In this document: in pieces, positions 1-20,000 of the stretch | Layout of the letters: every line of letters begins with the position of its first letter | Numbering within the stretch: position 1 is the stretch's first letter | From: an uncultured virus (IMG/VR IMGVR_UViG_3300025000_000094) | Taxonomy: Duplodnaviria > Heunggongvirae > Uroviricota > Caudoviricetes | IMG/VR virus record: IMGVR_UViG_3300025000_000094 | Reading direction: 5' to 3' (one strand) | Length of the DNA: 20,000 nt | Position numbers and translations under genes: made by a program | The notes under the pieces: model-generated | The model's input: only the letters and a program-made list of their open reading frames with translations | Told to the model about the DNA's origin: nothing | The model's database searches: none

Positions 1-2067
1 GCCAAAGACAGATGCCCCACCGCTACCGCTTTGGACACCTACTGCGGCGATATCTCCACCAGTTGCGCCTCCATTGCCAGACATCAAAAGATCCCCGGTC
101 AGCCCTACGCCATACGGCCCGCCGTTAGTGTACTGGCCATTTCCACCGGCCGACCCACCGCTAGCAGAACAATACGAGCCAAAAGTAGACGTTCCACCAT
201 TTCCGCCAGCCGCTCCTGCCGCTCCGACTGTGTATGCTATTTGTGAGGACACCGCCACCCCATAAACGTATTTTATTGCTGTGCCTCCGCCGCCACCGCC
301 ACCGCCGGCGGCATTTGTTCCACCAGCGCCGCCGCCGCCAATGCACGTCACTTTAAACATTCCCACACCGGCAGGAACTGTCCAGGTATAGTTTCCTGCC
401 GTGGATGACACATGCACGCGCGACATAGGCCACACCCCGCTAGGCTGTGCCCCGATAGTCACGGAACTGCTGAACGTATTCGCACCCGTGAAAGTCTGCG
501 TCGAAGCAAGCACCGCGCCGCCCGACGTAGACGGCAGATTCGTCAACTGCGAACCGTCCACGGCCGGCAACTTCGACAGCGCGTCCAGTTTCACAAGCTG
601 CGACGCCCCGTTGAACGTGTTGCCCTGCAACGTCACCGAGGACGACTTCGCGCTGAACGTCGCCCCCGTCAGCGCAAGCGACACGCCGTCGGCCAGGTAG
701 GACGTGGTGGCGATATTGATGTTGGCCGAGCCGTCAAAGGCCACGCCGTTGATGTTCCGCGCCGTGGCGAGCTTGGTGGCCGTGGCCGAGTTCCCGGTAA
801 CGTCCGAGGGCTGGGCGCAAGCCGCCGCGCCCGAAGCCGCCACGCCCCGCGCAAAGTTCACCCCCGAGCAGTCCGCCGGGTCAGCCGCCAGCGCCGTCGC
901 CGTCGCCGCGTTGCCGGTGGTGTTCTGGTTGAGCGTGGGGAAGCTCGTCAGCGAAGCCGCCGAGCCGTTGGTGTCCAGCTTGCCGGATAGCGCAGTAGTC
1001 ACCGTGGACAGATTCACGGCCGACTGCGGCACGCTCACTATCGTAGCCGCCGCCGCGCCAGGCCCGGAAGCCGTCACGGCCCCCGTCAGCGAGGTGATGT
1101 AGTTCCCCGTGGCCTGCTTGCCCGCCAGCGCCGTGGTGACGGTCGAGAGGTCCACCAGCGTGGCCGGCACGGTGGCCGTGTTGGACAGCTTCCCCGCCAG
1201 CGCCGTAGTCACGGTCGAAAGGTTGACCGCCGTCTGCGGCACCGAGACAATGGTGACCGCCGCCGCGCCCGGGCCGCTGGCCGTAGCCGCGCCGGTAAGG
1301 GACGTTATGTAGTTGCCGGTGTCCTGCTTGCCGGAAAGGGCGGTAGTCACGGTGGACAGGTTCACCGCGCTCTGCGGCACGGACACGATGGTGGCCGCCA
1401 CGGAGCCGGGACCGCTGGCTGTTACGTTGCCCGTCAGCGCCGTAATATAGTTGCCGGCCGCCTGCTTGCCGTTGAACGTGCTCCAATCGGTGGAGGTCAG
1501 GAAGCCCTTTGCGCCCGAGCCGGCCGCCTGGCCGTTGGTGTAGTCCAGGGATACCACGCCCGCCGCCACGTTGAAGTCGTTGGCCGTCAGGTCGGCCTCC
1601 TTAACAATGGTCGCGTCGGCGGTCTCCTTGCCGGCCAGCGCGGTGGTCACCGTGGACAGGTCTATCTTGGCCGTGGCCAGGCTGGTGATCCAGGCCGGGT
1701 TGGCGTAGGAGCCGCTGGTGTAGACCCCGTTGGTCACCGTGCCGGCGTTGCCGGTAATGGAGTGCGGATAGGTGCCGGTCGCGGTGGACTGGATGATGCC
1801 GGTGAGGTTTGAGCCGGAGCCGTAGAAGCCCGTGGCCGAGATGGTGGACACGCTCGCGCCGTCGCGCACGGTCAGCTGCTTGTTGATGCCGTCGAGCATT
1901 ATGGCCGGCGCGGCGGCCGCGCTGGTGGTGCTCGGGTATATCTTCAGCACGCCCGACAGGTAGCCGGTGCCGTAGGGCGTGGTGCTCACCATGGGCGGCA
2001 TCCAGGTGGGGACGCCGGCCTGGGCGGCGCTGGTCAGGAACAAGAGAATGGTCAGTATGGTCTTCAT
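1..2067 (-). CDS. Tail-fibre-like / adhesin-like repeat protein with N-terminal signal peptide and C-terminal glycine-rich domain (3'-truncated by window, >=689 aa; absent from ORF track)
   Basis: Manual translation: ATG at 2067 after GGAGGG RBS, open for 689 codons to base 1. Starts MKTILTILLFLTSAAQA-GVPTW. Contains fibre-type motifs GFLTSTDWSTFNGKQ, repeated LSTVTTAL(A/S)GK, GNSATATKLATARNINGVAFDGSANINI, KLPAVDGSQLTNLP, then YTWTVPAGV..KVTCIGGGGAGG Gly-rich domain. Sits in the fibre position after the hub gene. Confidence 0.88.
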   Translation of the reverse strand, partial: MKTILTILLFLTSAAQAGVPTWMPPMVSTTPYGTGYLSGVLKIYPSTTSAAAAPAIMLDGINKQLTVRDGASVSTISATGFYGSGSNLTGIIQSTATGTYPHSITGNAGTVTNGVYTSGSYANPAWITSLATAKIDLSTVTTALAGKETADATIVKEADLTANDFNVAAGVVSLDYTNGQAAGSGAKGFLTSTDWSTFNGKQAAGNYITALTGNVTASGPGSVAATIVSVPQSAVNLSTVTTALSGKQDTGNYITSLTGAATASGPGAAAVTIVSVPQTAVNLSTVTTALAGKLSNTATVPATLVDLSTVTTALAGKQATGNYITSLTGAVTASGPGAAAATIVSVPQSAVNLSTVTTALSGKLDTNGSAASLTSFPTLNQNTTGNAATATALAADPADCSGVNFARGVAASGAAACAQPSDVTGNSATATKLATARNINGVAFDGSANINIATTSYLADGVSLALTGATFSAKSSSVTLQGNTFNGASQLVKLDALSKLPAVDGSQLTNLPSTSGGAVLASTQTFTGANTFSSSVTIGAQPSGVWPMSRVHVSSTAGNYTWTVPAGVGMFKVTCIGGGGAGGTNAAGGGGGGGGTAIKYVYGVAVSSQIAYTVGAAGAAGGNGGTSTFGSYCSASGGSAGGNGQYTNGGPYGVGLTGDLLMSGNGGATGGDIAAVGVQSGSGGASVFG
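985..1470 (-). repeat. In-frame tandem repeats in the fibre gene: three 138-bp (46-aa) units plus one 72-bp (24-aa) partial unit
   Basis: Units start (minus strand) at 1470, 1332 and 1122: GKQxxGNYITxLTGxxTASGPGxxAxTIVSVPQxAVNLSTVTTAL(S/A). A 24-aa GKLSNTATVPATLVDLSTVTTALA unit starts at 1194. A further LSTVTTALAGK occurs near 1628-1660. Confidence 0.92.
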
Positions 2068-2083
2068 GGTATTTATCCCTCCG

Positions 2084-2362
2084 TTAGGAAATTGTCTCCC
2101 AGCTCGCCAGCGTTACGAAGCCGTCGGCGTTCTGCCCCGCCGTGGCCACGCCGGTATAAATCATCAGCGCCGGCAGGTCCGACGGGATGCACAGGAAGGC
2201 CACCGTGGGCGCTGCCGCCGCGGCAACCTTCAGCTGCGCCATCGTGGAGCCGGTCTTGATGCCGGCGCCGCCCGCCACCAGGGCCAGCACGTAGTCGAAA
2301 TTCGCCTGCACTTTATCGCCGTCAGGATCTCCGCCGTTGGCTATCGTGTTCGGGTACACCAT
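2084..2362 (-). CDS. Small tail protein, possible fibre/spike anchor or adaptor (92 aa)
   Basis: ATG directly follows the stop of the hub gene. N-terminal NG..D.DKVQANF motif resembles N-terminal attachment segments of tail fibres/spikes. Function inferred. Confidence 0.6.
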   Translation of the reverse strand: MVYPNTIANGGDPDGDKVQANFDYVLALVAGGAGIKTGSTMAQLKVAAAAAPTVAFLCIPSDLPALMIYTGVATAGQNADGFVTLASWETIS

Positions 2363-4780
2363 TTAAACCACCTCCACCAGGTCAAAGATTGTCGCCCACC
2401 GCTTCCACCATTCCAGCTCTATGCCCTCAATGCGCATCACCGTCTTCCAGAAAGAGATGCGCAGCGCCTTGGTGGTGTCATTCCAGTACTCAATATCTGG
2501 GTCGCCCCATTTAACATGTGTGTCGCCCCACTTCCAGGGCTTCAGGGCTGTGGGCTCCTCATAGGACAGACGCACCGTGTCGGCCAGTTCCAGGTGGGGC
2601 AGGAAGATGGTCTCCGCCTGGCACCGCCGACGCTTCACCTTTACGTAGGCCAGGATGGTGGGCGCGATGGCCTCGGCCAGGTAGACATTCTCCTCAGGCA
2701 AGAGCGAGCTGGACTGCACTTTGTACTTTATCTTGCGGCCGTTAAGGCCGTAGATGCCGGGCGTATTGGCGCTGTCGTCTGATATTTTGGTGTAGTCTCC
2801 GTAGACGGCCTCCACGTAGTTGCTCAGCCGGTCGGTGCCGTCCGTCACGTTGCGCACGTCAATCACGTTGAGCGCGCTGGTAAGGTCCATCACCGGAGTG
2901 AGCGTGGTGCTGCGCGGCTGGAACAAGAATTTTCCCTCCGCGTTGAAGCCCATCTCGTAACAGCATTTCTCGGCAAGGTCCTTTAAAAGCTGCAGGCAGT
3001 TCATGCCGGTCAGGTTGACCAGGGAGATAGTTGTGTTAGACGTGTAATATTTGAAGGTGAGCTGGTCCAGTATGGGAGAATAGGCCCCAAGCGTGTCAGA
3101 ATAAAGCAGACAGCGTATCTGGATATAGCGTTTTGCCGTAAGGTGCGCCGGCAGGCCGGTATTAAGGACCGCCAACCAGTCCCCCCAGGTGGAGTTATCG
3201 TCAGAGTTGCGGGTCTCTATCACGTAAGACGTACCGGCCGGCAGGGTCTGAATGGGGGTTATAGCGCCGTAGCTGGCCACAGCAATGCTGGTATCTATGC
3301 TGCCGAAAGTTAGGCTGCCGGCGGCAACGTAGCGGGCCGTTATTGAACCCACCATACAGTCAAAGGTGTTGTTCTGTTCCACGTACAAGGTGATGTAGTT
3401 TAGGTCTGAGTAATAGGACAGGCCGTCCATGGTGCCCAGGAGAACATCGTTCTTGTAGAAGTTCAGCTTATTATCGCTGGTGGTCTCCATGCGGAAAGAT
3501 GCCAGAGAGAAACCCGGGCTCACCAAGCCGAGGTCCAGCACTTCGTGAGTGGTATTCGGAGGTGTGTCATAGCCGTTACACACATACACGTGACCGTTCG
3601 GCTTGAACTTAAAGAAAAGGCCGGAACCCACAGAGCCGTCGGACGTGCTGGTAAGGCCCAAATAAGCCGTGCGCACTGTGCCGTCTATTAGCGACCCCAT
3701 GGCCGTGGTGATCTCGAACACACCCATAAAGCGCGTGGGTCGGGAACATTTGTTCACCCCCACGGACAGAGGACGCCAGTACGGTGCGTCCATTCCCCAG
3801 CCGCTATTGTAGGTCCAGCCATCCTCTATCACGCCGGCGATAGCGGCAGAGTCAAGCAACGCGGAGCCAGAATAGCGCACCGTATCTATATTGGATTTTG
3901 TGCTGGCGTCCCAGTCTGCCTTGCTGGTATAGGTCACCAGGTTCAGGATACTGTTCGAATATACCGCCGGAGAGATGGCATAGCTGGTAATGCCGCACAA
4001 CGTCATCACGCGCTGCACAACATCTTCCAGCGGCTTATCCTGGAACCAGTAGCTGTAAGCGCCATAGAGATTTTCTCCGGCGGTCAGCGCGTCCACCAGG
4101 GTTATGGTGGCGCCGGCGGTCTTAACGTTCAGGCCGGTGACAGAATAATCTATCTTTGGAATGAGCGCGGCGGCGGTCTCATAAGTGCTGCCGCGGCGTA
4201 CGTCCCATATACGGCCCACGCCGCCCATACCGCCCACCGTGAACTCTGAGCCAGAGTCCTCTCCGAATATGACGTAAGCAGACGGCGGGTGTGCTTCCAC
4301 TGTGGTGGAGATATCCTCGGCGTTAAACTGCTCGAAGAACGACATGGCGCCGGACACGGTAATGACGGCGGTCTTCTTCTTCAGGCTGCAGACCGGGTCA
4401 GTATTGATGTAGCCCAGGAAGACGTATGGCTTCTCGTAGGTGCCGTCGGCCAGCTGCGCGCCTACCTTTATGCGGATCTTGCTGCCGCGCAGAACATAGC
4501 TGCCGGAGAAGTAGCCTTTTGTGTTGCCAGGCTTCCACTGCTGCCGGTCGTTGCGCATGGTCAGCGTGGTGTTGTCTATGGTCCAGGAGTTGAAGGCCTC
4601 CTTGTCGAACTTCCACATGATCTTGCCGGCGTCTATGATCTGAGCCGTGATGTCCACCGGGGTAGCGTCGAAGGTATAGGACGTGCCGTTCCAGATGCGG
4701 CGATAAAGTTCCACGGTCTTGGAGTAGACCGGGTTCTGGCGAGCCAGAGAGGCTTTAAGGTTATCTGTTGCGGCTGGCAT
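2363..4780 (-). CDS. Tail tip / baseplate hub (Tal-like) protein with central inserted beta-rich domain(s) (805 aa)
   Basis: Size and position two genes after the tape measure. Hub-like N- and C-terminal segments (KIRIKVG..., LPHLELADTVRLSY..., MRIEGIE) flank a Ser/Thr/Tyr-rich lectin-like insert. Confidence 0.72.
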   Translation of the reverse strand: MPAATDNLKASLARQNPVYSKTVELYRRIWNGTSYTFDATPVDITAQIIDAGKIMWKFDKEAFNSWTIDNTTLTMRNDRQQWKPGNTKGYFSGSYVLRGSKIRIKVGAQLADGTYEKPYVFLGYINTDPVCSLKKKTAVITVSGAMSFFEQFNAEDISTTVEAHPPSAYVIFGEDSGSEFTVGGMGGVGRIWDVRRGSTYETAAALIPKIDYSVTGLNVKTAGATITLVDALTAGENLYGAYSYWFQDKPLEDVVQRVMTLCGITSYAISPAVYSNSILNLVTYTSKADWDASTKSNIDTVRYSGSALLDSAAIAGVIEDGWTYNSGWGMDAPYWRPLSVGVNKCSRPTRFMGVFEITTAMGSLIDGTVRTAYLGLTSTSDGSVGSGLFFKFKPNGHVYVCNGYDTPPNTTHEVLDLGLVSPGFSLASFRMETTSDNKLNFYKNDVLLGTMDGLSYYSDLNYITLYVEQNNTFDCMVGSITARYVAAGSLTFGSIDTSIAVASYGAITPIQTLPAGTSYVIETRNSDDNSTWGDWLAVLNTGLPAHLTAKRYIQIRCLLYSDTLGAYSPILDQLTFKYYTSNTTISLVNLTGMNCLQLLKDLAEKCCYEMGFNAEGKFLFQPRSTTLTPVMDLTSALNVIDVRNVTDGTDRLSNYVEAVYGDYTKISDDSANTPGIYGLNGRKIKYKVQSSSLLPEENVYLAEAIAPTILAYVKVKRRRCQAETIFLPHLELADTVRLSYEEPTALKPWKWGDTHVKWGDPDIEYWNDTTKALRISFWKTVMRIEGIELEWWKRWATIFDLVEVV

Positions 4781-4781
4781 T

Positions 4782-5540
4782 TTAGCGTTCCTGCAACTCC
4801 AGGCTTATCTCGTAAAGGCCCGTTTTACGGTTGATGTCGCGCCTGGGCGCATTGACTATGGCGCACTCAAAGCAATCCTCGGGCGCGTGGTCCTCGTAGA
4901 AAACGATGGTAATGAACTCAGCCGCCTTCATGTAGGGCAGCAGCAGGTCGTGGTCGGCCTTGGCTACGTCGTAGAGCTGACCTGATGCGGCGAACTTGGT
5001 CCACTCCCGGTAGAATACCAGGCGGCCGTCGCCGGTACGCTCGTAGCCGGAGCGCTGCTCGTCCTGCCGGGGCAGGGAACTACGCCACAGCTGGGTGCCG
5101 TCCAGGATTGACAGGCAGAACTTAAGCTCGCCGATGAACTTCTGCGCGTTGGCTGTCTGGGTGGTGCTCAGGCGCATACGCACACGAGAAGCGCTGATGG
5201 CGCTGGCAACCGAGACATACTTATAGGCCGTGGTCTCCGCAGTCATGGCGGCTTCCGGGATGGCTACCCAGGCGCTGCCGTTCCAATAGTCCGCGCCGCC
5301 GGACTTAACGTTGTGGTTAAGCATTATGATGCGGTCGAAGGTGCGCGAGATCTCCGTGCCCTGCCAGTTCTTGAAGATAATCTCTATGGTCTCTTCGGTG
5401 GCGTCGTCAGAGCCGGAGCTGGAATACTTGGTCTCCTGGTTCTGGTCGTAAAGATACGCCTTCAGCGCGTCGCCGCTAAGGCAGGTGATAGCGCAGTTCT
5501 CGTCCAGCCAGTTCTGCGAGTATATTTTTAAGCCGTTCAT
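4782..5540 (-). CDS. Distal tail (Dit-like) protein, N-terminal half possibly a discoidin/galactose-binding-like fold (252 aa)
   Basis: Directly follows the tape measure gene (ATGA overlap). Beta-rich N-terminal half (FDRIIMLNHN, YWNGSAWV, RVRMRLS, IGELKF) and C-terminal GLYEISLELQE end typical of Dit-like proteins. Confidence 0.6.
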   Translation of the reverse strand: MNGLKIYSQNWLDENCAITCLSGDALKAYLYDQNQETKYSSSGSDDATEETIEIIFKNWQGTEISRTFDRIIMLNHNVKSGGADYWNGSAWVAIPEAAMTAETTAYKYVSVASAISASRVRMRLSTTQTANAQKFIGELKFCLSILDGTQLWRSSLPRQDEQRSGYERTGDGRLVFYREWTKFAASGQLYDVAKADHDLLLPYMKAAEFITIVFYEDHAPEDCFECAIVNAPRRDINRKTGLYEISLELQER

Positions 5541-7429
5541 AGTGCGGTGTTCCCCGCTTTCATCCCACCGACCTTGCTGACAACGTTGGACAGCTCGCCT
5601 GCGGCCCGGTCACCCTGGCGCGCGGACTCGGAGATCCTGTCGCAGAGTGCGTCCACGCTGTCCACTATACCGGAGATGTAGAAGTTGTTGATAACACTGC
5701 CGCCCCCTCCGCCGGCCGCCGAAGCACCGGCAAAGGCAGGCGCGAGAGACGGGGCAGGGCGGCCTTTCATCAGGTTGCTGGTGGTGTCAGCGTCCAGCAC
5801 AAACTCGCCGCGGTGGACCACGCCGGCCACCTCGTTGGGGTCGCCGTCCCCGGTGTAACCGCCCTGGGAGAAACCCAGGAACTTCAGCAAGCCGCCGCCT
5901 TTGTTGCTGAACATGGAGAAGATGCCGTAAACGGCCGCCTTGGCCAGCATCTCCTCGGCCATGTCCAGGAAGGCTTTCAGGATACCGTTAAAGACCTTCT
6001 TGGCCAGCGCTTCGAGGTTCAAGAAATCCTTGCTGCTGGAGGTGAAGAAGTCGTGGAAGGCGGCCTTAGCCGGCCCCACGGAGCCGCCGATGACCTTCAG
6101 CCAGTTATCCCTGAAGTTCTCGGTCTTTTCGTGCATCACTATCAGCGCCTGCTGCAGGCCGCCGGAAATAGACTGCGAACCCTCTTCCCAGGCTACCTGC
6201 ATCTCTTCGACCGTAGCCTTGTTCTTCTGCTCGGCGTCTTTCCAGTTTCGCTCTATCTGCTTCCAGGTCTCGGTGTTCACCCTGGCGCGCAGCTCTTCGG
6301 TGGGGCGGATGGCGCTGACAAACGTGGCGCTATGCCCGGCCCAGGCGGTATAGTAATCCTGCATGGCCCGGTTGTTGCGCAACCAGGCTACGGTGGCCGT
6401 GTCTATTTCGCCGGCCTGCTTGGGCATGTTGATCTGAGTATTCTCCGGGGTGGTGTCCCCGGGCGGAGTGGTGGTGCCGCCGCCGCCCTGCCCCATCTTA
6501 GCCTTGAGCAGATCTATCTGCACCATCAGGCTGTGGATATCCTTCTTGGCCAGATTGATGGCCGCGGGGCTGCGGTCCAGCCAGTCAAAAAAACCGCTCT
6601 TGGGGCTTTCCAGTTTCTTCAGGTGGACCTGTATACGCTCAAGCATTTCCTCAAGAGCTTTAACCCGGTGCTCCTTCGTCTCCGGGCCCAGCACGGAAAG
6701 CGCCCTGGTCACCTTGGTCAGGGCCGTCACCACAAGTGTGGCTGCCGGAGTAAGGCGCTCGCCCCAGGTCTTTACCAGGTCGTCCCATTCCAGCCCAAGC
6801 AGATGCACCTGCCCGGAGTAGCCCTTCATCTCGGCCGCGGCCGCTCCGGAGAAGCGCGCCTGGATCTGCTTGTGGACTTCCGCGAAGATCTGCGCCTTGG
6901 GCAGGCTTTCGTCTATCTGAATGCCGAGCAGATTAAGGCCCTTGGTCTGTCCCTGGAAGGCTTTGCCCAGAATGTCGGCCGCGCTGGCCAGGTCCCCGGT
7001 CTTGGTGCGCAGATCCAGGGAGTCCCGGATGGCCTGCTTAAGCGCGTCACCCCACAGGCCGCGCTGCACCAGGGAGCGCTCGGCCGCTATAATCTCTTCA
7101 TCCGTGGCCATGCTCACGCGCGCCTGGGCCTTGGCGAACTCCACCAGGTCCTGCGTGACGGCCCTGTTGGTGATCCCCAAGTTGGCTAACGCATTGGAAA
7201 GCTGGTTAATGCTTTTCTCTTCCTCGGCGAACGCCTGCACGGCGTCCTTGGCGAAGGTGTAAATGCCGGCCCCGATGCCGCCGGCGCCCAGGAGCCCCAT
7301 GAACTTGGTCATGCCGCGGCTGACGCGGCCCACTTCCCGGTCTATGGAGTTGACCGAGTTAATGGCCGCGTCTACGCTTTTGGCGTCTACGTTGAAACCG
7401 AAGGATGTAACAAGTTTTTGAAGGCTCAT
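5537..7429 (-). CDS. Tape measure protein (630 aa)
   Basis: Ala/Leu-rich helical protein after the chaperone gene. TMP motifs DLASAADILGKAFQGQTKGLNLLGI, RFSGAAAAEMKGYSGQ and C-terminal GFSQGGYTGDG..VAGVVHRGEFVL. GAGGT RBS. Confidence 0.93.
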   Translation of the reverse strand: MSLQKLVTSFGFNVDAKSVDAAINSVNSIDREVGRVSRGMTKFMGLLGAGGIGAGIYTFAKDAVQAFAEEEKSINQLSNALANLGITNRAVTQDLVEFAKAQARVSMATDEEIIAAERSLVQRGLWGDALKQAIRDSLDLRTKTGDLASAADILGKAFQGQTKGLNLLGIQIDESLPKAQIFAEVHKQIQARFSGAAAAEMKGYSGQVHLLGLEWDDLVKTWGERLTPAATLVVTALTKVTRALSVLGPETKEHRVKALEEMLERIQVHLKKLESPKSGFFDWLDRSPAAINLAKKDIHSLMVQIDLLKAKMGQGGGGTTTPPGDTTPENTQINMPKQAGEIDTATVAWLRNNRAMQDYYTAWAGHSATFVSAIRPTEELRARVNTETWKQIERNWKDAEQKNKATVEEMQVAWEEGSQSISGGLQQALIVMHEKTENFRDNWLKVIGGSVGPAKAAFHDFFTSSSKDFLNLEALAKKVFNGILKAFLDMAEEMLAKAAVYGIFSMFSNKGGGLLKFLGFSQGGYTGDGDPNEVAGVVHRGEFVLDADTTSNLMKGRPAPSLAPAFAGASAAGGGGGSVINNFYISGIVDSVDALCDRISESARQGDRAAGELSNVVSKVGGMKAGNTAL

Positions 7430-7436
7430 GATAACC

Positions 7437-7694
7437 TCAGCCCAGGCCCCAACTTCGAAGTTTATCCGCTTGTTTCTGGGGGGCGGGCGGCCCGGAATTT
7501 ATCCCTTGCGCCAGGCGCACCATGGTATCGCGCTTAATGGCCTGTTTGACGGCCCAGCGAATCCACCTCGGACTTTTATCTAAAAGGGCTTCAAAAGTAT
7601 AAGCTGGGAACACTGACGCTATGAGAGCTAAGGCACTGGAAAGTGCGTCTTCTATTTCTTCGGCTTGGACAGTTCCAGTACCCTTATGAAATTT
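7437..7694 (-). CDS. -1 frameshift extension of tail assembly chaperone (lambda gpT-like portion of a G-T fusion, ~196 aa total)
   Basis: Heptamer A AAT TTC (X XXY YYZ, + strand gaaattt 7688-7694) lies in the correct phase near the chaperone end. The -1 frame is closed by TGA four codons upstream, then open (..HKGTGTVQAEEIEDALSSALALIASVFPAYTFEALLDKSPRWIRWAVKQAIKRD..) to TGA at 7437-7439, just before the TMP start. Confidence 0.8.
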   Translation of the reverse strand, partial: KFHKGTGTVQAEEIEDALSSALALIASVFPAYTFEALLDKSPRWIRWAVKQAIKRDTMVRLAQGINSGPPAPQKQADKLRSWGLG

Positions 7695-8026
7695 GAGAAT
7701 ATCTCACCGAAGTCGTTGGTCTCACAGATGGCCACGGCCAGGCGAGAAAGTTCTCCCAGACTCACCTCTGATGTTACTTCAGGAGGCAGGCCGGTAATGA
7801 TGGCTACCAGGTCCCCCACGTTTTCATCCAGGTCCTGGAATATTTTGAGCACGAAATCCGCGTCAGAGCCTACCGGCCCCTGCGAAATTTTAACGGCGCT
7901 AAGCTGCAAAAACTTAAGGGCGCGGTTCAACCGCTTGCAGGATAATTCTCCGATCTCTACCTTGTGCCTCTGGATGACCACTATTCTGGTCACTGGATCA
8001 ATAACTTGCATAGCTGATGGTTCCAT
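7652..8026 (-). CDS. Tail assembly chaperone (lambda gpG-like, 124 aa)
   Basis: Lies between major tail and tape measure genes. Start revised to ATG 8026 (MEPSAMQ) behind AAGGAGGG RBS. Slippery site near the 3' end. Confidence 0.8.
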   Translation of the reverse strand: MEPSAMQVIDPVTRIVVIQRHKVEIGELSCKRLNRALKFLQLSAVKISQGPVGSDADFVLKIFQDLDENVGDLVAIITGLPPEVTSEVSLGELSRLAVAICETNDFGEIFSNFIRVLELSKPKK

Positions 8027-8043
8027 TGTTCCCTCCTTATTAT

Positions 8044-8072
8044 CCCCGGCGGCCGCCACTGCACCGCCGGGG
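8044..8072 (-). promoter_or_regulatory. GC-rich hairpin between major tail and chaperone genes (no U tract; possible mRNA stabiliser/attenuator)
   Basis: CCCCGGCGG-N11-CCGCCGGGG perfect 9-bp inverted repeat in the intergenic gap, just upstream of the chaperone RBS. Confidence 0.5.
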
Positions 8073-8087
8073 TTACTGCGCGCCTCT

Positions 8088-8957
8088 TTAGGCGGTGACG
8101 CTGAACTGCTCTATCTTCGGGGCCGCCAGCCGGTTGCCCGCTTTGTCCTTCAGGCCGGTGCTGATGATGGCCTGCAGGCTGTCCGAGGCCGTCCAGTTGG
8201 CGGTCGGGGTGAACAGTATCTTCTTGGTGGCCGCGTTGTAGCTTATGGCGCCGGCAACCAGGGCCGCCGCTGCGGGCACGGTGGTGTTGATTATCTGCAC
8301 GGTGTCGCCGTACACTATGCTGTTCTCGTCCATCGGGTTGGCCTCGGTGATGGTCCACTCCACGGTGGTCTTGGCGTCCTTGACTACGGTGCCGCCGTCA
8401 ACGGGCGAGCTCAGGGCCACGGTAGGCGGGGTTGTGTCGCTGGTGCCGGGGTCGAAGTGGCCGAAGCGCTGCTCGTCGGTCTTGGTGGTATCCACCAGCA
8501 CATCGAACTCCACGTCTATGACGGTTTCCTTGCCCTTGGTGTAGGCCGGGCTGGTCTTGCCGGTGGGCACGCACTTCCAGATGGTCAGCTTGGCGTTGCC
8601 GCCGCCGATGCCCTTGGGGTTGATGAAAAGGGTGCGCTCCGTCACGCTGGTCTTGCCGCCGAAGTAGAACACCCCGTCCACTACGGCGGTGGTCGGATAG
8701 CCGAACGCCAATGCCATCTTGGCCGCGGTGATCTCTATCATAGAGAGCGTGATCTTCATGCCCTCGTCCGTGATGAACTTCTTCACGGTGCCTATCACCT
8801 GGTCCGGCTTAACGTCGTACTGCGTCTCTTCGTGTGAGATCTTAACGCCGCCCGTTATAAAGCCCACGTCCACCGCGTCCGCCTCAACGGCGCCGTAGTT
8901 GCCCACCTTAAGGCTGTTCGCCGCCTGCAAACCCACTACTATGTTTTCCGCGTCCAT
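8088..8957 (-). CDS. Major tail tube protein with C-terminal Ig-like (Big_5/SbsA-like) domain (289 aa)
   Basis: N-terminal tube motifs (DVGFITGGVKISHE, DVKPDQ, KITLSM.E, YTKGKETVIDVEF). C-terminal DTTPPTV.LSSP.DG...FTPTANW....ISTGLKDKAGN.L pattern. AGAGGAG RBS. Confidence 0.88.
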   Translation of the reverse strand: MDAENIVVGLQAANSLKVGNYGAVEADAVDVGFITGGVKISHEETQYDVKPDQVIGTVKKFITDEGMKITLSMIEITAAKMALAFGYPTTAVVDGVFYFGGKTSVTERTLFINPKGIGGGNAKLTIWKCVPTGKTSPAYTKGKETVIDVEFDVLVDTTKTDEQRFGHFDPGTSDTTPPTVALSSPVDGGTVVKDAKTTVEWTITEANPMDENSIVYGDTVQIINTTVPAAAALVAGAISYNAATKKILFTPTANWTASDSLQAIISTGLKDKAGNRLAAPKIEQFSVTA

Positions 8958-8970
8958 GGTTATTCTCCTC

Positions 8971-9375
8971 TTACTTGAGTTTGAACTTAAAGGCGAACAT
9001 CGCCGCCCTGTGATACTCTCGCGGCTTCTCCGCGAAATTGGAAACCCCGCCCACGTGCTTGCCCCAGAATATCCGGTGCGTGGTAGACGGGATGGAAATC
9101 TCGTCCTGCTTGTCGAGCATGGCCTTCAGCCTGTTGATAATATTATTGGCTGCCACCTGCTCGAACTCGCCTACGAAGACGGAGACCTGGATGGTCATTT
9201 TGTCCATGACCTCTTCCATGCTGCCCTCGGAGACCGGGCCGAAGATCAGGTAGGGCGCCGCGGTGTCCGGAGGCGCCTCCTCGGGGTAGATGCGCGGATC
9301 TAAAACGGTAGCGCCGGCTATAAGGCCGCGCAGGGTGGCGTCTCCCGCCAGGTAAGCGTAAAAATCGGTCAGCAT
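8971..9375 (-). CDS. Tail completion/terminator protein (DUF3168/gp17-like, 134 aa)
   Basis: L.GD.TL.GLI....RIYPEEAP.D...PYLIF...S and IQVSVF motifs. Immediately precedes the major tail gene. Confidence 0.8.
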   Translation of the reverse strand: MLTDFYAYLAGDATLRGLIAGATVLDPRIYPEEAPPDTAAPYLIFGPVSEGSMEEVMDKMTIQVSVFVGEFEQVAANNIINRLKAMLDKQDEISIPSTTHRIFWGKHVGGVSNFAEKPREYHRAAMFAFKFKLK

Positions 9376-9376
9376 G

Positions 9377-9985
9377 TCATTCTTTCCCGAAAGGCTTAAA
9401 GTCGTACTGCTGCTCGAACTTGTCTATCTTTGCGCCGGTGTAAGGGTCATAGTTGTACTGCTTGGCGTATTTGCTTAAAACCTTCTCGATGGCTATCTCC
9501 ACCTTGATGGGCGCTTTGGCCCAGAAGGCCTCCAGGGTGTCCCAGAACCACGGACGGGGCAGCACGCGCGCCTCATTAGTCTGCACGTCCTGCAGGCGGT
9601 CGTACTTGTACTCGCGGTTCCCAGCGAAGTTGGTGCCCTTCTTTACGAAGCGCGTTCGGTGCTTCTTGGTGCCGTACTCGAGCATGAAAGCGTAAAAGGC
9701 TTTCGTGGCGAAGCCCACGGTCAGCAGGATCTCTTTGCCTAGGTGCTTGGGCTCCAGCTTGGCGTAGATGCTGGAGCGCAGCGTGCCGCTTTGGGAGTTG
9801 GGCGCCTCACCCGGCTCGGACGAAAAACCGTTTCCGTCCTGTACCTGGGCCCGGAGTGCCGCCTGCGCCTCTTTGCCCACGTTCTTTAAGACGTCCTCTA
9901 CGCTGCTCTCAACGTCCAGGCCGATACCCTGCAGCTGGGAGATAAGCTCGTCCTTGCCCTCAAGGCGAAAGTAGGTCTCGTTCAT
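9377..9985 (-). CDS. HK97 gp10-like neck/tail-completion protein (202 aa)
   Basis: Start revised to ATG 9985 (ATGA overlap, GGAGG RBS). S.PGEAP...SGTLRSSI, YAFMLEYGTK and PRPW motifs. Confidence 0.85.
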   Translation of the reverse strand: MNETYFRLEGKDELISQLQGIGLDVESSVEDVLKNVGKEAQAALRAQVQDGNGFSSEPGEAPNSQSGTLRSSIYAKLEPKHLGKEILLTVGFATKAFYAFMLEYGTKKHRTRFVKKGTNFAGNREYKYDRLQDVQTNEARVLPRPWFWDTLEAFWAKAPIKVEIAIEKVLSKYAKQYNYDPYTGAKIDKFEQQYDFKPFGKE

Positions 9986-10326
9986 GACCCGGCCTCCATG
10001 ATCTCCTTGCACATTAAGTCCAGGAAGATCTTGCGCATTTCGGGGTCTATCACGGAAACGATAACGAAGTACCTCGGGGAGGTGGTTCCCCAAGCCACGC
10101 GCCAGCCCGGCCGCACGCCGGCGTGATAGCGTATCCGCACCTTCACGTCCACAACGGAGAGCATCTGCTGGCCAGCCAGGTACTGATCGCCGCGCAGCGG
10201 GCGGATCTCCGCGCGCACGTTGGAGAACTGCGTGGTCCAGGTGTTCGCGGGCGCGCCCAGCGAATTAGGGCCGGTGGAGACCGGCTTCTGCAGGACCACA
10301 ACGTGGCGGAGGGCGCCCGCGTGCAT
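9982..10326 (-). CDS. Head-tail adaptor / head closure protein (SPP1 gp16-like, 114 aa)
   Basis: MxAGxLRHVVVLQ, AEIRPLRG, KVRIRY..GV..GWRV, I.SVIDP motifs and synteny. Confidence 0.9.
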   Translation of the reverse strand: MHAGALRHVVVLQKPVSTGPNSLGAPANTWTTQFSNVRAEIRPLRGDQYLAGQQMLSVVDVKVRIRYHAGVRPGWRVAWGTTSPRYFVIVSVIDPEMRKIFLDLMCKEIMEAGS

Positions 10327-10925
10327 TAGTCCCCCCTCTGGTACATGTCTATCTGACTCAGGATATCCTGCAGGGTGAGCGGTAACTGCTTTATGTCGGT
10401 GTTTCCTACCGCGCCGGCGGTGGCGTCACGGTTCTCGTACCAGTAGGAGGCCAGCATGTTGACCGCCAGCCTTACCTCTTCAGGCACGGCCGCTGCGGCG
10501 CCGTAGCCCGCAGTAAACTCTATGTCTACGCCGTTGACCTCCTTGAGGTCGTCGGAAGGCCAGGCGTACCCGTCCTTTAGCTTTATGCGGGCCGGCAGGG
10601 ATACCAAGTCGGTTACATAGCTGCTCGCGGCCAGGGTCCGCACGTTTCCCTCAACGTCGGTGTACTTAACACTGGACACAGCCGACACAGGGCCTATCGG
10701 CAGCTTTACCACGTCCGCGGCCGGGAACTCATCCAGGTAGTAGTTCCATGTCTGGGTCACCATGCGTATGCCGGTCACCCCCTCTATCCAGCGCCGGGCG
10801 GCCTTAACCAGGGCGCCTATAAGCGTGTCGTCTTCGCTTATGTCCACGCGCATGTGGGCCTTGGCCTCCGCGGTGGTCACAGGTTCCGCCGCCGGTGCTG
10901 TCTTAAGATAGAGGGTTCCTTTCAT
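10326..10925 (-). CDS. Head-tail connector protein (HK97 gp6 / phiE125 gp8-like, 199 aa)
   Basis: PAAEPVT.AEAKAHMRVD..EDD.LI..L..AAR, TQTW, FTAGYG...AVP, YWYENR motifs. Confidence 0.92.
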   Translation of the reverse strand: MKGTLYLKTAPAAEPVTTAEAKAHMRVDISEDDTLIGALVKAARRWIEGVTGIRMVTQTWNYYLDEFPAADVVKLPIGPVSAVSSVKYTDVEGNVRTLAASSYVTDLVSLPARIKLKDGYAWPSDDLKEVNGVDIEFTAGYGAAAAVPEEVRLAVNMLASYWYENRDATAGAVGNTDIKQLPLTLQDILSQIDMYQRGD

Positions 10926-10934
10926 GGCGGTCTC

Positions 10935-11252
10935 TTACTCCTGCGCGGGCTTCTCCAGCAGGGCCTTCATGGCGGCTTTGGCCTCGGCCACGGCTTTACC
11001 GGCGGCAGCCTTCTCCTGCTTGTTGCCGGCCTTTTTAAGGGCTTCCTGGGCATCGGCCAGCACCTTCTCGGCGGCCACTACCTCCGGGGCTTTGGCGGCC
11101 TCTTCGGGCGCCGGCGCGGGCTTCTCCTGCACGGGCGCGGCGTAGCCGCCGTCTATGAAGGCTTTAGCCTCGGCTTCGGGCAGGTTGTACTCCTGCCCGG
11201 CCAGCAGCACGCCGGCGGGACCGGCGGCAAGGGTTATCATTTTTACTTTCAT
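10935..11252 (-). CDS. Small head-module protein with Ala/Lys/Glu-rich tail (105 aa)
   Basis: AAGGAG RBS. MKVKM.T..AGP.GV...GQEY.LPE.EAKAFI.GGYA.PV pattern common in small ORFs between capsid and connector genes. Confidence 0.7.
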   Translation of the reverse strand: MKVKMITLAAGPAGVLLAGQEYNLPEAEAKAFIDGGYAAPVQEKPAPAPEEAAKAPEVVAAEKVLADAQEALKKAGNKQEKAAAGKAVAEAKAAMKALLEKPAQE

Positions 11253-11264
11253 GGTGTTGTCTCC

Positions 11265-11849
11265 TTACTGTGCCCCAACCTTAACCCAAGACTGATCCCC
11301 GGCCGGAGCCTCGGTAGAGATGTAGAGCGCATTGTCGCTGGTGAGCACGGCCAGGCAGTTCTTGGCATAGCCGCTGGCCGGCAGGGCCGCCACGGCGCCT
11401 ATCAGGCAGAAGGACTGCGAAGATGTGACGGACGTGGACACTGTGACGGTAGCCGCGGTATGGGTAACAGCCCCGGTAAAAGCGGCGGTAGTGCTGATAA
11501 GGCCGCCGTTAAAGGTGGCCACGCCGGTCCACGCCTGCGCGCCGCTAGCCGCGGTAAACGTGGATTTGTAGTTGGACGCGCCGTAGTAGGCGTTGCCGGT
11601 CTGGGTAAGCACGCCAGACTGCGTTAAGGCCGCGGCGTTGGTAAACACGGCGCCGGCCTGGATGTCCAGGATGGCCCCGCTCAGCAACTCCATCTCGCCG
11701 CCGCTGGTTATCACTTTCTTGGCGCCGCCCTGCTCCGTGTATATCTTGGTGTTATACTGGGCGAACACCGGCGAAGCGGCGGCCATGATCCCGATTATAA
11801 GCACCACCACCAGCAGCTCTAAAAACGTAAATCCTTTTCTGATGTTCAT
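11265..11849 (-). CDS. Head-fibre-like protein with type IV prepilin-type N-terminal leader (~194 aa)
   Basis: Start revised to ATG 11849 (or 11852) behind AAGGAGG; the longer ORF-track start runs through a terminator. MNIRKG|FTFLELLVVVLIIGIMAAASPVFA followed by QYNTKIYTEQGGAKKVI.SGG, resembling the N-terminus of phage head-fibre proteins, then a Thr/Ala/Gly-rich shaft. Confidence 0.75.
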   Translation of the reverse strand: MNIRKGFTFLELLVVVLIIGIMAAASPVFAQYNTKIYTEQGGAKKVITSGGEMELLSGAILDIQAGAVFTNAAALTQSGVLTQTGNAYYGASNYKSTFTAASGAQAWTGVATFNGGLISTTAAFTGAVTHTAATVTVSTSVTSSQSFCLIGAVAALPASGYAKNCLAVLTSDNALYISTEAPAGDQSWVKVGAQ

Positions 11850-11867
11850 CATTCCTCCTTGGTTAGT

Positions 11868-11902
11868 AAAAAGGCCCCGGCCATGTTTCAGACCGGGGCC
11901 TC
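11868..11902 (-). terminator. Rho-independent terminator after capsid and decoration genes
   Basis: Minus strand GAGGCCCCGGTC-TGAAACAT-GGCCGGGGCCTTTTT: GC stem plus U tract in the 11850-11922 intergenic gap. Confidence 0.8.
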
Positions 11903-11922
11903 CGGTCATTTAGCAGTTCCGC

Positions 11923-12372
11923 TTAGGCGGTGCCCTCGGCGGGGCCCACGTGCTGCTCGCTACCGTCCACGTTGGCGGGCTGGGTGACGGGCAGTTTCCT
12001 GGAACCGAACTTGATCACCAGGATGCTGTCTATCTCCACGTTCTGCGCGGCGCGGGTGGCGATGAGCTTCAGGTAGCGCTTGCCGGGGTTTATCACCTCG
12101 ATAGCCTGCACCTTCTCGGCGGCTTCGTCGCCGGAGTTCACCAGCGAGGTGCCTTCCAGGTCGCCGTAGGCGTCCGCGGAGCCGTCGTCCGAGGACTGCT
12201 GCACCTTGCAGGTGTTGGTGCCGCCCGACACTATGGCGCCCAGTTCCACCAGGAACAGCGCGCCCTCGTAGCCGGCCATGTCCACGGGGTCCGAGGTGAC
12301 AGCCCCGGTGCCCGCGGCCTGGCTGACTTTTATGCGGTCCACGACCGCGTTGCTAAGCAGTGACTTAATCAT
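11923..12372 (-). CDS. Putative capsid decoration/cement protein (149 aa)
   Basis: Directly after the major capsid gene and before the terminator, AAGGAG RBS. Beta-sandwich-like pattern (VDMAGYEG..F.V..G, KVQQS.D, KRYLKL). Function inferred from position. Confidence 0.6.
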   Translation of the reverse strand: MIKSLLSNAVVDRIKVSQAAGTGAVTSDPVDMAGYEGALFLVELGAIVSGGTNTCKVQQSSDDGSADAYGDLEGTSLVNSGDEAAEKVQAIEVINPGKRYLKLIATRAAQNVEIDSILVIKFGSRKLPVTQPANVDGSEQHVGPAEGTA

Positions 12373-18182: not shown

Positions 18183-18210
18183 AAAAAAGCCCCGGCCAAA
18201 TGACCGGGGC
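18183..18210 (-). terminator. Rho-independent terminator-like hairpin 2 upstream of HNH
   Basis: Minus strand GCCCCGGTC-ATTT-GGCCGGGGC-TTTTTT. Confidence 0.75.
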
Positions 18211-19468: not shown

Positions 19469-20000
19469 TCACGTCCTTGGTTTAATCCACAAAACTTCCG
19501 TGCGCTCGCGCGCCATACACGCAAAAGCTTTTCTCTCTACTCTTTGCCAGCCGCGGTAAAGATCTTCATATAGCGAACTGGGATATCCACTAAGGATTAC
19601 CCCCCCCCCGCAAGGAATGGAGTTGGTTAGCAAGGACCACGTGCCCCGCCTTCCTGGAATCCATGACATAGGGCGGGTCCACGTAGTGAAGCGTCTCGGG
19701 TGAATCGTATTTCTCCAAAACGCCCAGCGCGTCCATGCTCTCGATAACCACGCCCTGAAACCTATCTATAATGCGGCGCAGAACTTCAGGATAGGAAGCC
19801 CAGTCATGGGACGGGGTGGACCCCGACCTATTCACGTTTCCGCGAAATCCGTTTTGACGGTAAAGGCTATCGGAGCCGTGCCCCATGTTCGCTTTCACAA
19901 TGGTGCGCCGGGCCTGTTCTACCGCGTCCACGTTGTGGTTATAGGCTTCCAGCATTTCTTGCCGGGAAAACGGCGTCAAAGAGATCCTGCGCAGTAATTC
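19469..20000 (-). pseudogene. Dam-like (D12-class) N6-adenine DNA methyltransferase, 5' end outside window, frameshifted at a G10 run
   Basis: Frame open from 20000 (ELLRRISLTPFSRQE..GVVIE.MDA..YDSPETLHYVDPPY) stops at 19590-19592. The conserved C-terminus VILSGY.S.LY..LY.GW..RTEVLWI continues in another frame to 19469. The junction is C10 at 19600-19609. Confidence 0.85.

What the first reader, a model, noticed from the sequence alone, without database searches (positions are those of the whole stretch)
1..11852. Both virion fibre-like proteins carry export signals: candidate phage system that routes fibres through the host secretion pathway
Seen: the head-fibre-like gene (11849-11265) begins with a prepilin-type hydrophobic leader ending in PVFA|Q, and the tail-fibre-like gene (2067 to <1) begins with a Sec-type signal ending in AQA|G. 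Each also has a Cys pair with 16 residues between (11355-11408; 817-870). No other structural gene here has such a leader. Established: tailed-phage structural proteins normally fold and assemble in the cytoplasm without signal peptides, and disulfides form mainly in the periplasm. Inference: the fibres may be exported, matured and disulfide-bonded in the envelope and added to particles at or after lysis. Alternatively they may be displayed on the lysogen surface as adhesins or receptor blockers. Two independent leaders in one operon argue for selection rather than accident.
Basis: partly seen in the sequence, partly recalled or inferred. Interest (0 to 1): 0.85.

Follow-up and report, generated by a model that had tools for sequence, protein, structure and literature searches.

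The report
Phage fibre proteins carrying export signals
An uncultured tailed phage and all its known relatives put bacterial secretion signals on their tail fibre and on a fibre-like head-region protein, which suggests that these parts leave the cytoplasm, where phage particles are built, before they act.

Summary
Observation confirmed and extended. The window is the late operon of an uncultured HK97-type siphophage. Its last tail gene (fibre, 728 aa in full) starts with a 17-residue Sec-type leader. The 194-aa gene after the capsid genes starts with a canonical prepilin-type leader (Pfam and NCBIfam above cut-off). Its textbook cut is G6|F7, not PVFA|Q, though PVFA|Q aligns with the Sec cleavage sites of its homologues.

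Both leaders look selected:
- All 13 fibres sharing the N-domain carry a leader, including 9 of 9 syntenic fibres of related phages (GC 34-60%).
- All 7 close relatives and 120 of 140 relatives in all of the 194-aa protein carry one. Here a Sec leader was swapped for a pilin-type one.
- Its Cys pair covaries (63 both, 65 neither, 5 one).
- A leaderless 92-aa neighbour co-varies with the fibre's N-domain.

In cultured Cellulophaga phage phi10:1, four leader-bearing distal-tail proteins are annotated as MS/MS-detected structural proteins.

Export is well supported. Joining the particle after export is plausible but unproven. This scan has noted leader-bearing phage fibres on other DNA before. 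SignalP, complex prediction and the window's own genome were not available.

The parts
1..2067 (-). Distal tail fibre gene, first 689 of 728 codons (full protein = P0008)
   Evidence: ORF and RBS. PHROG tail-fibre families phrog_863, 21412, 1833. Full length. Last gene of the Dit-Tal-small-fibre block, as in 9 of 9 relatives.
2017..2067 (-). Sec-type leader of the fibre, residues 1-17 (MKTILTILLFLTSAAQA, then GVPTW)
   Evidence: Basic n-region, uncharged hydrophobic core, A-Q-A at -3..-1. A leader is present in 13 of 13 N-domain homologues.
1783..2016 (-). Conserved N-domain of the mature fibre, residues 18-95
   Evidence: Alignment A7. Residues 18-60 are 71% identical among six type-A fibres, against 43% for the leader. 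Co-varies with the 92-aa protein.
817..870 (-). C-x16-C module of the fibre (C400, C417; ADPADC...C)
   Evidence: phrog_1833 matches residues 415-459.
1..402 (-). Glycine-rich tip domain of the fibre (residues 556 onward; runs off the window)
   Evidence: PF21722 Gly_rich_2, 32.1 bits against cut-off 24.3; covers residues 556-728 in P0008.
2084..2362 (-). Leaderless 92-aa protein, candidate adaptor or partner of the fibre
   Evidence: Conserved just before the fibre in 9 of 9 relatives, with inserted genes beside it in L100 and L103. Identity matrix correlates with the fibre N-domain, rho 0.74, Mantel p 0.0002. Model pLDDT 80.3 with no clear fold match.
2363..4780 (-). 805-aa tail-tip protein (called Tal here by position)
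   Evidence: Follows the tape measure and the 252-aa protein. 36-47% identical homologues in 9 related viral contigs. No named family.
4782..5540 (-). 252-aa protein (distal-tail position)
   Evidence: Position after the tape measure protein; conserved in relatives. No family hit.
11265..11849 (-). 194-aa leader-bearing, fibre-like protein of the head module (P0001)
   Evidence: ORF and RBS. 7 close homologues and 138 profile hits. Syntenic in L003 and L008.
11760..11849 (-). Leader region, residues 1-30: prepilin-type motif MNIRKG|FTFLE plus hydrophobic helix, then SPVFA|Q
   Evidence: PF07963 and TIGR02532 above cut-offs. Residues 7-24 helical in the model. The junction aligns with the Sec sites of homologues.
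11268..11459 (-). Conserved C-terminal beta domain, residues 131-194, with C148 and C165
   Evidence: pLDDT 87-98. Found in 138 proteins of 59-1914 aa, at the C-terminal end of nearly all. Cys covariation 63/65/5. No Pfam, PHROG, NCBIfam or PDB sequence match.
11865..11903 (-). 13-bp GC-rich hairpin followed by UUUUU, between the 149-aa gene and the leader-bearing gene
   Evidence: MFE -29.4 kcal/mol, z -3.35, 0 of 200 shuffles as stable. Hairpins at the same place in L003, L008 and L101.
11923..12372 (-). 149-aa protein (phrog_5707, function unknown) between capsid gene and hairpin
   Evidence: A homologue precedes the leader-bearing gene in L008 and L101.
12400..13596 (-). HK97-type major capsid protein
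   Evidence: PF05065, E 1.2e-55.

Best explanation
The window is the late (virion) operon of an uncultured HK97-type siphophage. Two of its late proteins are made as secretory pre-proteins.

The distal tail fibre has four parts. A 17-residue Sec/signal-peptidase-I leader comes first. A conserved N-domain of about 75 residues follows, then a modular shaft with a C-x16-C module, then a glycine-rich tip.

The 194-aa head-region protein belongs to a large family of leader-bearing, fibre-like proteins. They end in a small conserved beta domain with a covarying Cys pair. In this phage the family's usual Sec leader has been replaced by a prepilin-type leader, while the old cleavage junction (VFA|Q) is kept.

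Most likely both proteins cross the cytoplasmic membrane late in infection and fold and oxidise in the envelope. The fibre then docks on the tail tip when cytoplasm and periplasm mix at lysis, probably through the co-evolving leaderless 92-aa protein.

Shown: the leaders exist, are conserved across the lineage, and were replaced by a non-homologous export leader; the two Cys covary; the fibre and the 92-aa protein form one module.

Inferred: export, cleavage, disulfide formation, and above all late attachment to the particle.
For: 1. Context. HNH, TerS, TerL, portal, S78 protease, HK97 capsid, connectors, Ig-tagged major tail, tape measure, then 252 aa, 805 aa, 92 aa and the fibre, all on one strand.

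2. Fibre leader is lineage-wide.
- Of the 120 listed hits of a search with fibre residues 1-130 (405 hits in all), 5 align from their own residue 1-2, and all 5 have leaders. The other 115 match internally.
- In 9 of 9 viral contigs with a Tal homologue and downstream DNA (GC 0.34-0.60, Tal identity 36-47%), the fibre after the small gene starts with a leader.
- All 13 aligned leaders are 16-21 residues with a net positive n-region. 11 of 13 have Ala at the aligned -1.

3. The leader behaves like a signal, not like a folded part. It is 43% identical, against 71% for the next 43 residues, among the six type-A fibres.

4. The start is not downstream. There is no conserved internal Met. In 4 of 9 relatives the leader's ATG overlaps the stop of the small gene before it, and in a fifth that of an inserted HNH gene.

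5. Real fibre tips sit behind the leaders: Gly_rich_2, Gp53-like_C and Peptidase_S74.

6. The 194-aa family.
- 7 of 7 close homologues have leaders. 5 are Sec-type and 2 prepilin-type.
- 120 of 140 family proteins examined start with a hydrophobic leader.
- The gene sits in the same head-module slot in L003 and L008.

7. Cys pair: both present in 63, both absent in 65, one only in 5, gap at a column in 7, of 140.

8. Partner. The identity matrices of the 92-aa protein and the fibre N-domain correlate (rho 0.74, Mantel p 0.0002). Tal against the N-domain gives 0.05.

9. Precedent. The record of cultured Cellulophaga phage phi10:1 annotates gp091-gp094 as 'structural protein, experimental MS/MS'. 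All four start with Sec-type leaders.
Against: - No predictor such as SignalP could be run, and no experiment bears on this phage. Export, cleavage and disulfides are inferred.
- The host and the window's genome are unknown, so the presence of a prepilin peptidase cannot be checked.
- A class III leader normally leaves the protein anchored in the inner membrane until a pilus machine extracts it. That does not fit simple release into the periplasm.
- The proposed partner (92 aa) has no leader, so the two could meet only after lysis. No such assembly step is known for tailed phages.
- The co-variation could reflect co-inheritance of neighbouring genes.
- A fibre of 728 residues is probably longer than a periplasm is wide.
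- The phi10:1 annotation comes from another phage family, and material that co-purifies with particles could give the same MS result.
- About ten apparently complete family members, such as P0260 and P0250, lack a leader, so the C-terminal domain is not tied to export.
- The head-region slot holds unrelated leader-bearing proteins in L097, L098 and L103 and none in L105 and L106. This looks more like accessory cargo than a fixed virion part.
Confidence: 0.45

Rival explanations
1. Exported, but not virion parts. The fibre and the 194-aa protein act in or on the envelope of the infected (or lysogenic) cell. They might mask or destroy receptors so that progeny are not lost on debris, exclude superinfecting phage, or serve as adhesive surface fibres in the way Bdellovibrio uses its phage-like MAT fibres.
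For: - MAT fibres share the architecture of signal peptide, conserved N-domain, trimeric shaft and variable tip, with S74 on 13 of 21 (PMC10769870, passages read). One member of the C-terminal-domain family (P0155) matches the MAT N-domain model NF053851 at E 8.9e-11, below its cut-off.
- Leader-bearing proteins occupy varying slots in structural modules. They are found after the capsid gene, between major tail and tape measure (L009), between capsid and tail tube A of a podophage (L011), and twice in L008. That mobility is typical of accessory genes.
- Small exported proteins inside structural operons are known: lambda Lom, T5 Llp, Cor, HK97 gp15 (recalled, not checked here).
Against: - The fibre holds the receptor-binding position at the end of the tail module in 10 of 10 phages of the lineage. 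It has a conserved N-domain and variable tips, the pattern of a particle-docking fibre.
- In L105 and L106 no other fibre gene lies between it and the endolysin.
- It is co-transcribed, and often translationally coupled, with tail genes.
- Its N-domain co-varies with a leaderless neighbour.
- phi10:1 leader-bearing tail proteins are annotated as found in virions.
Confidence: 0.3
2. For the 194-aa protein only: it is a modular minor pilin. The host prepilin peptidase cuts it at G6|F7. It is then built into the host's type IV pilus or type II secretion pseudopilus, displaying the fibre-like module or blocking the machine (for instance a pilus used as a phage receptor).
For: - The class III motif is complete: a short basic leader ending in Gly, then F+1, E+5 and about 20 hydrophobic residues. 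PF07963 and TIGR02532 are both above cut-off.
- A predicted helix spans residues 7-24.
- Modular pilins with grafted modules exist (PMC8179133, abstract seen in a search listing only).
Against: - Only 2 of 140 family members (P0001, P0002) have this motif. The others use plain Sec leaders, so the family's shared function does not need a pilus.
- The Sec-type junction VFA|Q is retained and aligns with the homologues' sites.
- No pilin-like globular fold follows the helix in the model.
Confidence: 0.1
3. The leaders are not export signals. They are uncleaved hydrophobic N-terminal helices with a structural role. They might tether fibres to the inner membrane during assembly, pack into the tail tip, or insert into the host membrane on infection.
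For: No predictor was run and no cleavage is shown. The hydrophobic stretch of the 194-aa protein (about 20 residues) is long enough to span a membrane.
Against: - Leaders keep the n/h/c layout and a small residue at -1 while their sequence drifts faster than the adjoining domain.
- A non-homologous export leader replaced the Sec one at the same junction.
- The fibre leaders have hydrophobic cores of only about 10-13 residues, short for a membrane span.
Confidence: 0.1
4. Artefact: wrong start codons or chance hydrophobic N-termini.
For: Starts were inferred from ORFs and ribosome-binding sites only.
Against: - Strong ribosome-binding sites precede both starts.
- Leaders are conserved in frame in all homologues, several with start-stop overlaps.
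- Independent gene callers gave the same starts for P0001 and P0008.
Confidence: 0.03

Closest known systems
Leader-bearing 'structural proteins' gp091-gp094 of cultured Cellulophaga phage phi10:1 (KC821618)
   Same: It is an HK97-type siphophage. The proteins sit at the distal end of the tail module, before membrane-protein (lysis-like) genes. All start with Sec-type leaders ending in A/G|Q. The record annotates them as structural on experimental MS/MS.
   Different: No sequence similarity to the window's proteins: tblastn of P0001 and of fibre residues 1-120 found nothing in 50,697 phage records. The host is a Bacteroidota. No prepilin-type leader. The leaders are not remarked on in the record. 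I did not read the paper behind the record.
Bdellovibrio bacteriovorus MAT (mosaic adhesive trimer) chimeric fibre proteins (PMC10769870)
   Same: Phage-tail-fibre-like trimers with a signal peptide, a conserved N-domain directly after it, and swappable C-terminal tips including S74 chaperone domains. They are exported and surface-displayed (passages read). This works like what I propose for export.
   Different: They are chromosomal genes of a predator, not genes of a phage tail operon. The window's fibre does not match the MAT N-domain model NF053851. The MAT N-domain is about 130 aa, here about 75. MATs are not parts of a virion.
Exported accessory proteins inside phage structural operons: lambda Lom and Bor, T5 Llp, Cor of phi80/N15, HK97 gp15
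   Same: Signal-bearing or membrane proteins encoded among head or tail genes, acting in the envelope. L009 carries its family member between the major tail and tape measure genes.
   Different: Those are small, sporadic, often separately transcribed, and not fibre-like. Here the leader sits on the lineage's conserved 346-952-aa fibre at the receptor-binding position.
Type IV pilins and pseudopilins, including modular pilins (PF07963/TIGR02532; PMC8179133, abstract only)
   Same: The 194-aa protein has the complete class III leader and hydrophobic alpha-1 segment, above both curated cut-offs.
   Different: The rest of the protein is homologous to Sec-leader proteins of phage structural modules and shows no pilin head fold. 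It is encoded in a phage head module.
Coat proteins pIII and pVIII of filamentous phages (recalled)
   Same: Virion proteins made with Sec-type leaders and assembled outside the cytoplasm.
   Different: A different virus realm and an extrusion-type assembly. No precedent for tailed phages.
PblA/PblB of Streptococcus mitis phage SM1 (recalled)
   Same: Phage tail or fibre proteins that also end up on the bacterial surface.
   Different: They have no leaders. They reach the surface after phage-mediated lysis.

Membership tests
Prepilin-type (class III) signal / type IV pilin-like proteins (PF07963, TIGR02532) | Short basic leader ending in Gly, then Phe+1, Glu+5 and about 20 hydrophobic residues; profile score above curated cut-off | tested here: met
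   MNIRKG|FTFLELLVVVLIIGIMAAA. PF07963 27.0 bits against 21.2; TIGR02532 27 bits against 16.3.
Prepilin-type (class III) signal / type IV pilin-like proteins (PF07963, TIGR02532) | Globular pilin head (alpha-beta roll) packed on the N-terminal helix | tested here: inconclusive
   The AF2 model has a helix at 7-24, a poorly ordered middle and a small all-beta C-terminal domain. That domain is shared with Sec-leader homologues. No pilin among the fold matches.
Prepilin-type (class III) signal / type IV pilin-like proteins (PF07963, TIGR02532) | Processing by a host prepilin peptidase and assembly by a pilus or T2SS machine | not testable with these tools
   The window's own assembly is not held. 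The host is unknown.
Sec / signal peptidase I substrates (fibre leader) | Positive n-region, uncharged hydrophobic h-region, small residues at -3 and -1 | tested here: met
   MK / TILTILLFLTS / AQA|G. The same layout holds in 13 of 13 homologues. Rule-based only.
Sec / signal peptidase I substrates (fibre leader) | Call by a trained predictor (SignalP 6) and experimental cleavage | not testable with these tools
   No such predictor is among the tools.
Phage tail fibre / receptor-binding protein | Encoded at the distal end of the tail module; fibre-type domains; conserved N-terminus and variable C-terminus | tested here: met
   Position. phrog_863, 21412, 1833 and Gly_rich_2. Gp53-like_C and Peptidase_S74 tips in relatives. 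N-domain conserved, tips vary.
Phage tail fibre / receptor-binding protein | Physical presence on the virion | not testable with these tools
   No proteomics exist for this phage. The only analogy is the phi10:1 annotation.
Bdellovibrio MAT fibre family (NF053851 Bdello_MAT_N) | Conserved MAT N-domain of about 130 aa directly after the signal peptide | tested here: not met
   No NCBIfam hit for P0008 or P0001 at E up to 0.01. Only family member P0155 matches, at 41.8 bits against a cut-off of 60.
Moron (autonomously expressed accessory gene in a late operon) | Own promoter upstream and terminator downstream | tested here: not met
   Fibre: a 16-nt gap to the gene before it, and start-stop overlaps in relatives. 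194-aa gene: a hairpin and U-run lie upstream with no room for a promoter, and only 12 nt separate it from the next gene. The consensus scan found no promoter upstream of either gene. Its best hit (11823-11794) lies inside the leader-coding region.

The most novel reading that the evidence does not exclude
A whole lineage of tailed phages, and probably several others, builds its particles in two compartments. Heads and tails assemble in the cytoplasm. The host-recognition fibres are sent through the Sec pathway (here once through a prepilin-type leader), fold and form disulfides in the envelope, and are picked up by the tail tip through a small leaderless adaptor only when lysis mixes the compartments. 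This would be a morphogenetic route not described for Caudoviricetes.
Probability: 0.4. Interest if true: 0.9.

Novelty: new variant of a known kind. Interest (0 to 1): 0.72.

Why it matters
Tailed-phage particles are taken to assemble wholly in the cytoplasm. If the fibres that choose the host mature in the periplasm, several things follow:
- Fibre folding, disulfides and perhaps glycosylation would depend on host envelope machinery.
- Host range could be limited by secretion compatibility. The swap from a Sec to a prepilin-type leader seen here would then be an adaptation to a host.
- Heterologous production of such fibres, and engineering of phage host range, would need export signals.

It would also link phage fibres to exported bacterial fibres such as the Bdellovibrio MAT proteins.

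The question is directly testable in a cultured system, Cellulophaga phage phi10:1, whose leader-bearing tail proteins are already annotated as found in virion preparations.

Tried and rejected
- **Complex prediction.** The job (92-aa protein x3 with fibre residues 18-150 x3) was not available. Binding is untested.
- **Own genome.** It is not held. The nearest record, G001, is a 12.9-kb fragment without the fibre.
- **Extending the window past its left end.** An exact 50-base pattern found nothing in viral contigs.
- **Host inference failed.**
  - megablast of 12.4 kb against phage records found nothing.
  - The best TerL matches are about 41% identical.
  - The capsid protein's nearest named relatives, at 47-48% identity, are in assorted Proteobacteria and Desulfobacterales.
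- **Genome-contig scan for the 194-aa family.** It gave one 3.6-kb contig labelled as a Nanoarchaeota MAG, which I do not trust as a host. The metagenome scan added only copies of known loci.
- **Fold of the C-terminal domain.** Matches are weak only.
  - Foldseek found nothing at E up to 0.001.
  - A trimerisation ('foldon-like') or glycan-binding role is a lead, not a result.
- **ESM Atlas.** Only scores below 0.9.
- **Trimeric autotransporter idea for the C-terminal domain.** Dropped: no Pfam family matched it, and a disulfide-linked domain of about 60 residues is not a membrane anchor.
- **Fibre Cys pair.** The motif occurs in 4 of the 120 listed hits: 3 complete proteins, all with leaders, and 1 fragment. 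These are too few to weigh.
- **Literature.** Searches on signal peptides on tailed-phage fibres or virion proteins gave no paper on the subject. Two papers opened on that hope (PMC5723332 and PMC8143477, passages only) only list SignalP as a method or count signal peptides. Subscription journals are not covered.

Full report
**What the window is.** All long ORFs lie on the minus strand and form a textbook late operon of an HK97-type siphophage. In order they are:
- a split DNA methyltransferase (19469-20000);
- a 281-aa protein, then a terminator-like hairpin (18210-18189);
- HNH, TerS, TerL, portal and S78 protease;
- the major capsid protein (12400-13596) and a 149-aa protein (phrog_5707);
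- the 194-aa gene of the finding (11265-11849) and a 105-aa protein;
- head-tail connector, head completion, a gp10-like protein and a tail completion protein;
- a major tail protein with a Big_5 Ig domain, chaperones and the tape measure;
- a 252-aa and an 805-aa tail-tip protein, a 92-aa protein, and the fibre (2067 to beyond position 1).

The window's own assembly is not held. No deposited phage is close.

**The observation.** Both leaders, both Cys pairs and their coordinates are as stated. Among 24 ORFs of the operon, the two proteins have the most hydrophobic N-termini (3.71 and 2.49; all others are at most 2.05).

MNIRKG|FTFLELLVVVLIIGIMAAA is a complete prepilin-type motif, above the curated cut-offs of PF07963 and TIGR02532. 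The canonical cut for that class is after G6.

**The 194-aa protein and its family.** A word-indexed search found 7 proteins at E up to 0.001 among 1319 candidates.
- All 7 start with a hydrophobic leader.
- Only the window's protein and an 82% identical one (P0002) have the prepilin motif.
- The other five have ordinary Sec-type leaders. The leaders of the three closest (P0003-P0005) end in AMA|Q, GVA|Q and GMA|Q, in register with SPVFA|Q of the window.

So a Sec leader and a pilin-type leader replace one another at the same junction. That is hard to explain unless export itself is what selection keeps.

A profile search of 1.84 billion representatives found 138 proteins at E up to 0.001 (83 at 1e-10). 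They range from 59 to 1914 aa and nearly all match by their C-terminal end.

Of 140 family proteins inspected, 120 begin with a hydrophobic leader. Nine or so of the other 20 are fragments that do not start with Met. About ten look complete and leaderless, for example P0260, which has a classical fibre N-terminus.

Its two Cys are both present in 63 proteins, both absent in 65, and present singly in 5 of 140. This is what a disulfide would give, though relatedness inflates such counts.

**Where the family sits.** In two related phages the gene is in the same slot between capsid and connector genes: L003, with a Sec leader, and L008, with two copies.

In other viral contigs, family members sit in three other places:
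- between the major tail and tape measure genes (L009, L010);
- between the capsid and tail-tube-A genes of a podophage (L011);
- after a capsid-like gene (L013).

Further relatives of the window's phage carry unrelated leader-bearing proteins in the head slot: a family of about 130 aa in L097, L098 and L103, and a 189-aa one in L101. L105 and L106 carry none.

A GC-rich hairpin precedes the gene in the window (with a U-run) and in L003, L008 and L101.

This mobility makes the head-region protein look like exported accessory equipment rather than a fixed capsid part. 'Head fibre' is not established.

**The fibre.** A search with residues 1-130 gave 405 hits, of which the best 120 are listed. 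Only 5 of the 120 are colinear from their own first residues, and all 5 have leaders. The other 115 share shaft motifs internally, and most have ordinary leaderless fibre N-termini.

Using the 805-aa protein to find relatives gave 9 viral contigs with downstream DNA (two pairs of them near-identical). GC is 0.34-0.60 and identity 36-47%.
- In 9 of 9 the order is: protein of about 250 aa, protein of about 810 aa, a small protein of 79-91 aa, then the fibre. Single genes are inserted in L100 and L103.
- In 9 of 9 the fibre begins with a leader.

The 13 aligned leaders are 16-21 residues, all with a net positive start. 11 have Ala at the aligned -1. They diverge faster than the domain behind them: 43% against 71% identity among six type-A fibres.

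In 4 relatives the leader's start codon overlaps the stop of the small gene before it, and in a fifth that of an inserted HNH gene.

Behind the conserved N-domain the proteins vary in length (346 to 952 aa). They end in known fibre tips: Gly_rich_2 in the window, Gp53-like_C in L097, and the S74 chaperone in L105.

In L105 an M15 endolysin lies two genes downstream.

This is the pattern of a lineage's own docking fibre, not of a sporadic insert.

**A leaderless partner.** The pairwise identities of the small protein and of the fibre N-domain correlate across the 9 phages: rho 0.74, Mantel p 0.0002; without a near-duplicate, 0.80. The small protein against its other neighbour gives 0.33, and Tal against the fibre N-domain 0.05.

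The two therefore travel as a unit, by interaction or merely by linkage. The complex prediction that could have tested binding was unavailable.

**Comparison with what is known.** Earlier notes of this scan hold the same kind of observation on other DNA (55 notes matched my words). They pointed to cultured Cellulophaga phages.

I checked one. The record of phi10:1 (KC821618), also an HK97-type siphophage, annotates gp091-gp094 at the distal end of its tail module as 'structural protein, annotation based on experimental MS/MS proteomics'. All four, and the pectate lyase gp095, start with Sec-type leaders. I read the record, not the paper behind it.

The Bdellovibrio MAT fibres show that phage-type trimeric fibres can be exported. 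They have a signal peptide, a conserved N-domain and swappable tips (PMC10769870, passages). The window's fibre is not a member of that family.

Five literature searches found no paper that treats secretion signals on tailed-phage fibres. Subscription journals are outside the library.

**Verdict.** That both proteins are secretory pre-proteins is well supported (I put it near 0.8). What happens after export is open.

I favour late docking of the fibre on the tail tip (0.45 for the whole chain). An envelope or surface role without virion incorporation comes next (0.3). For the 194-aa protein the accessory reading is at least as likely as a virion role, and display on a host pilus is a further option.

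The Sec-to-prepilin leader swap is, to my knowledge, a new detail.

Noticed in passing
window 19469-20000 (minus strand): The DNA methyltransferase is split into two overlapping ORFs (19590-20000 and 19469-19669). Both match phrog_56 and phrog_1996. This may be a frameshift or a broken gene.
   Followed up: no
window 18189-18210 and 11870-11903: Two terminator-like hairpins share nearly the same stem sequence (GCCCCGGTC...GGCCGGGGC). One lies before the HNH/terminase block, the other after the capsid and 149-aa genes.
   Followed up: partly
window 7437-8059: A 135-aa ORF and a following 58-aa ORF sit between the major tail and tape measure genes. This is the usual place of the tail assembly chaperone pair made by programmed frameshifting. 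I did not examine it for a slippery site.
   Followed up: no
L097 4100-6757: A related phage carries an extra 885-aa leader-bearing fibre-like protein between the major tail gene and the chaperone. It has the same ADPADC...C module as the window's fibre.
   Followed up: partly
L097 950-1363, L098 3848-4237, L103 2594-2986: A separate family of leader-bearing proteins of about 130 aa, with two conserved Cys, fills the head-module slot in three relatives. No Pfam family matched the one member scanned, from L097.
   Followed up: partly
L103 11364-11591 and L100 3268-3966: Single genes are inserted into the conserved tail-tip block. An HNH endonuclease lies between the small gene and the fibre in L103. 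A zinc-finger (zf-FCS) protein lies between Tal and the small gene in L100.
   Followed up: partly
L104 13727-15811: A 694-aa Kelch-repeat protein without a leader follows the leader-bearing fibre in one low-GC relative. It may be a second host-recognition protein.
   Followed up: no
L011 7578-8159: In a T7-like podophage contig, a minimal family member consists only of a leader, a Pro-Val-Pro-rich linker and the conserved C-terminal domain. It lies next to a second leader-bearing protein of 202 aa.
   Followed up: partly
window 11794-11823 (minus strand): The best sigma-70-like match in the window (10 of 12) lies inside the leader-coding part of the 194-aa gene. It is probably a by-product of the AT-richer codons of the hydrophobic helix.
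   Followed up: no
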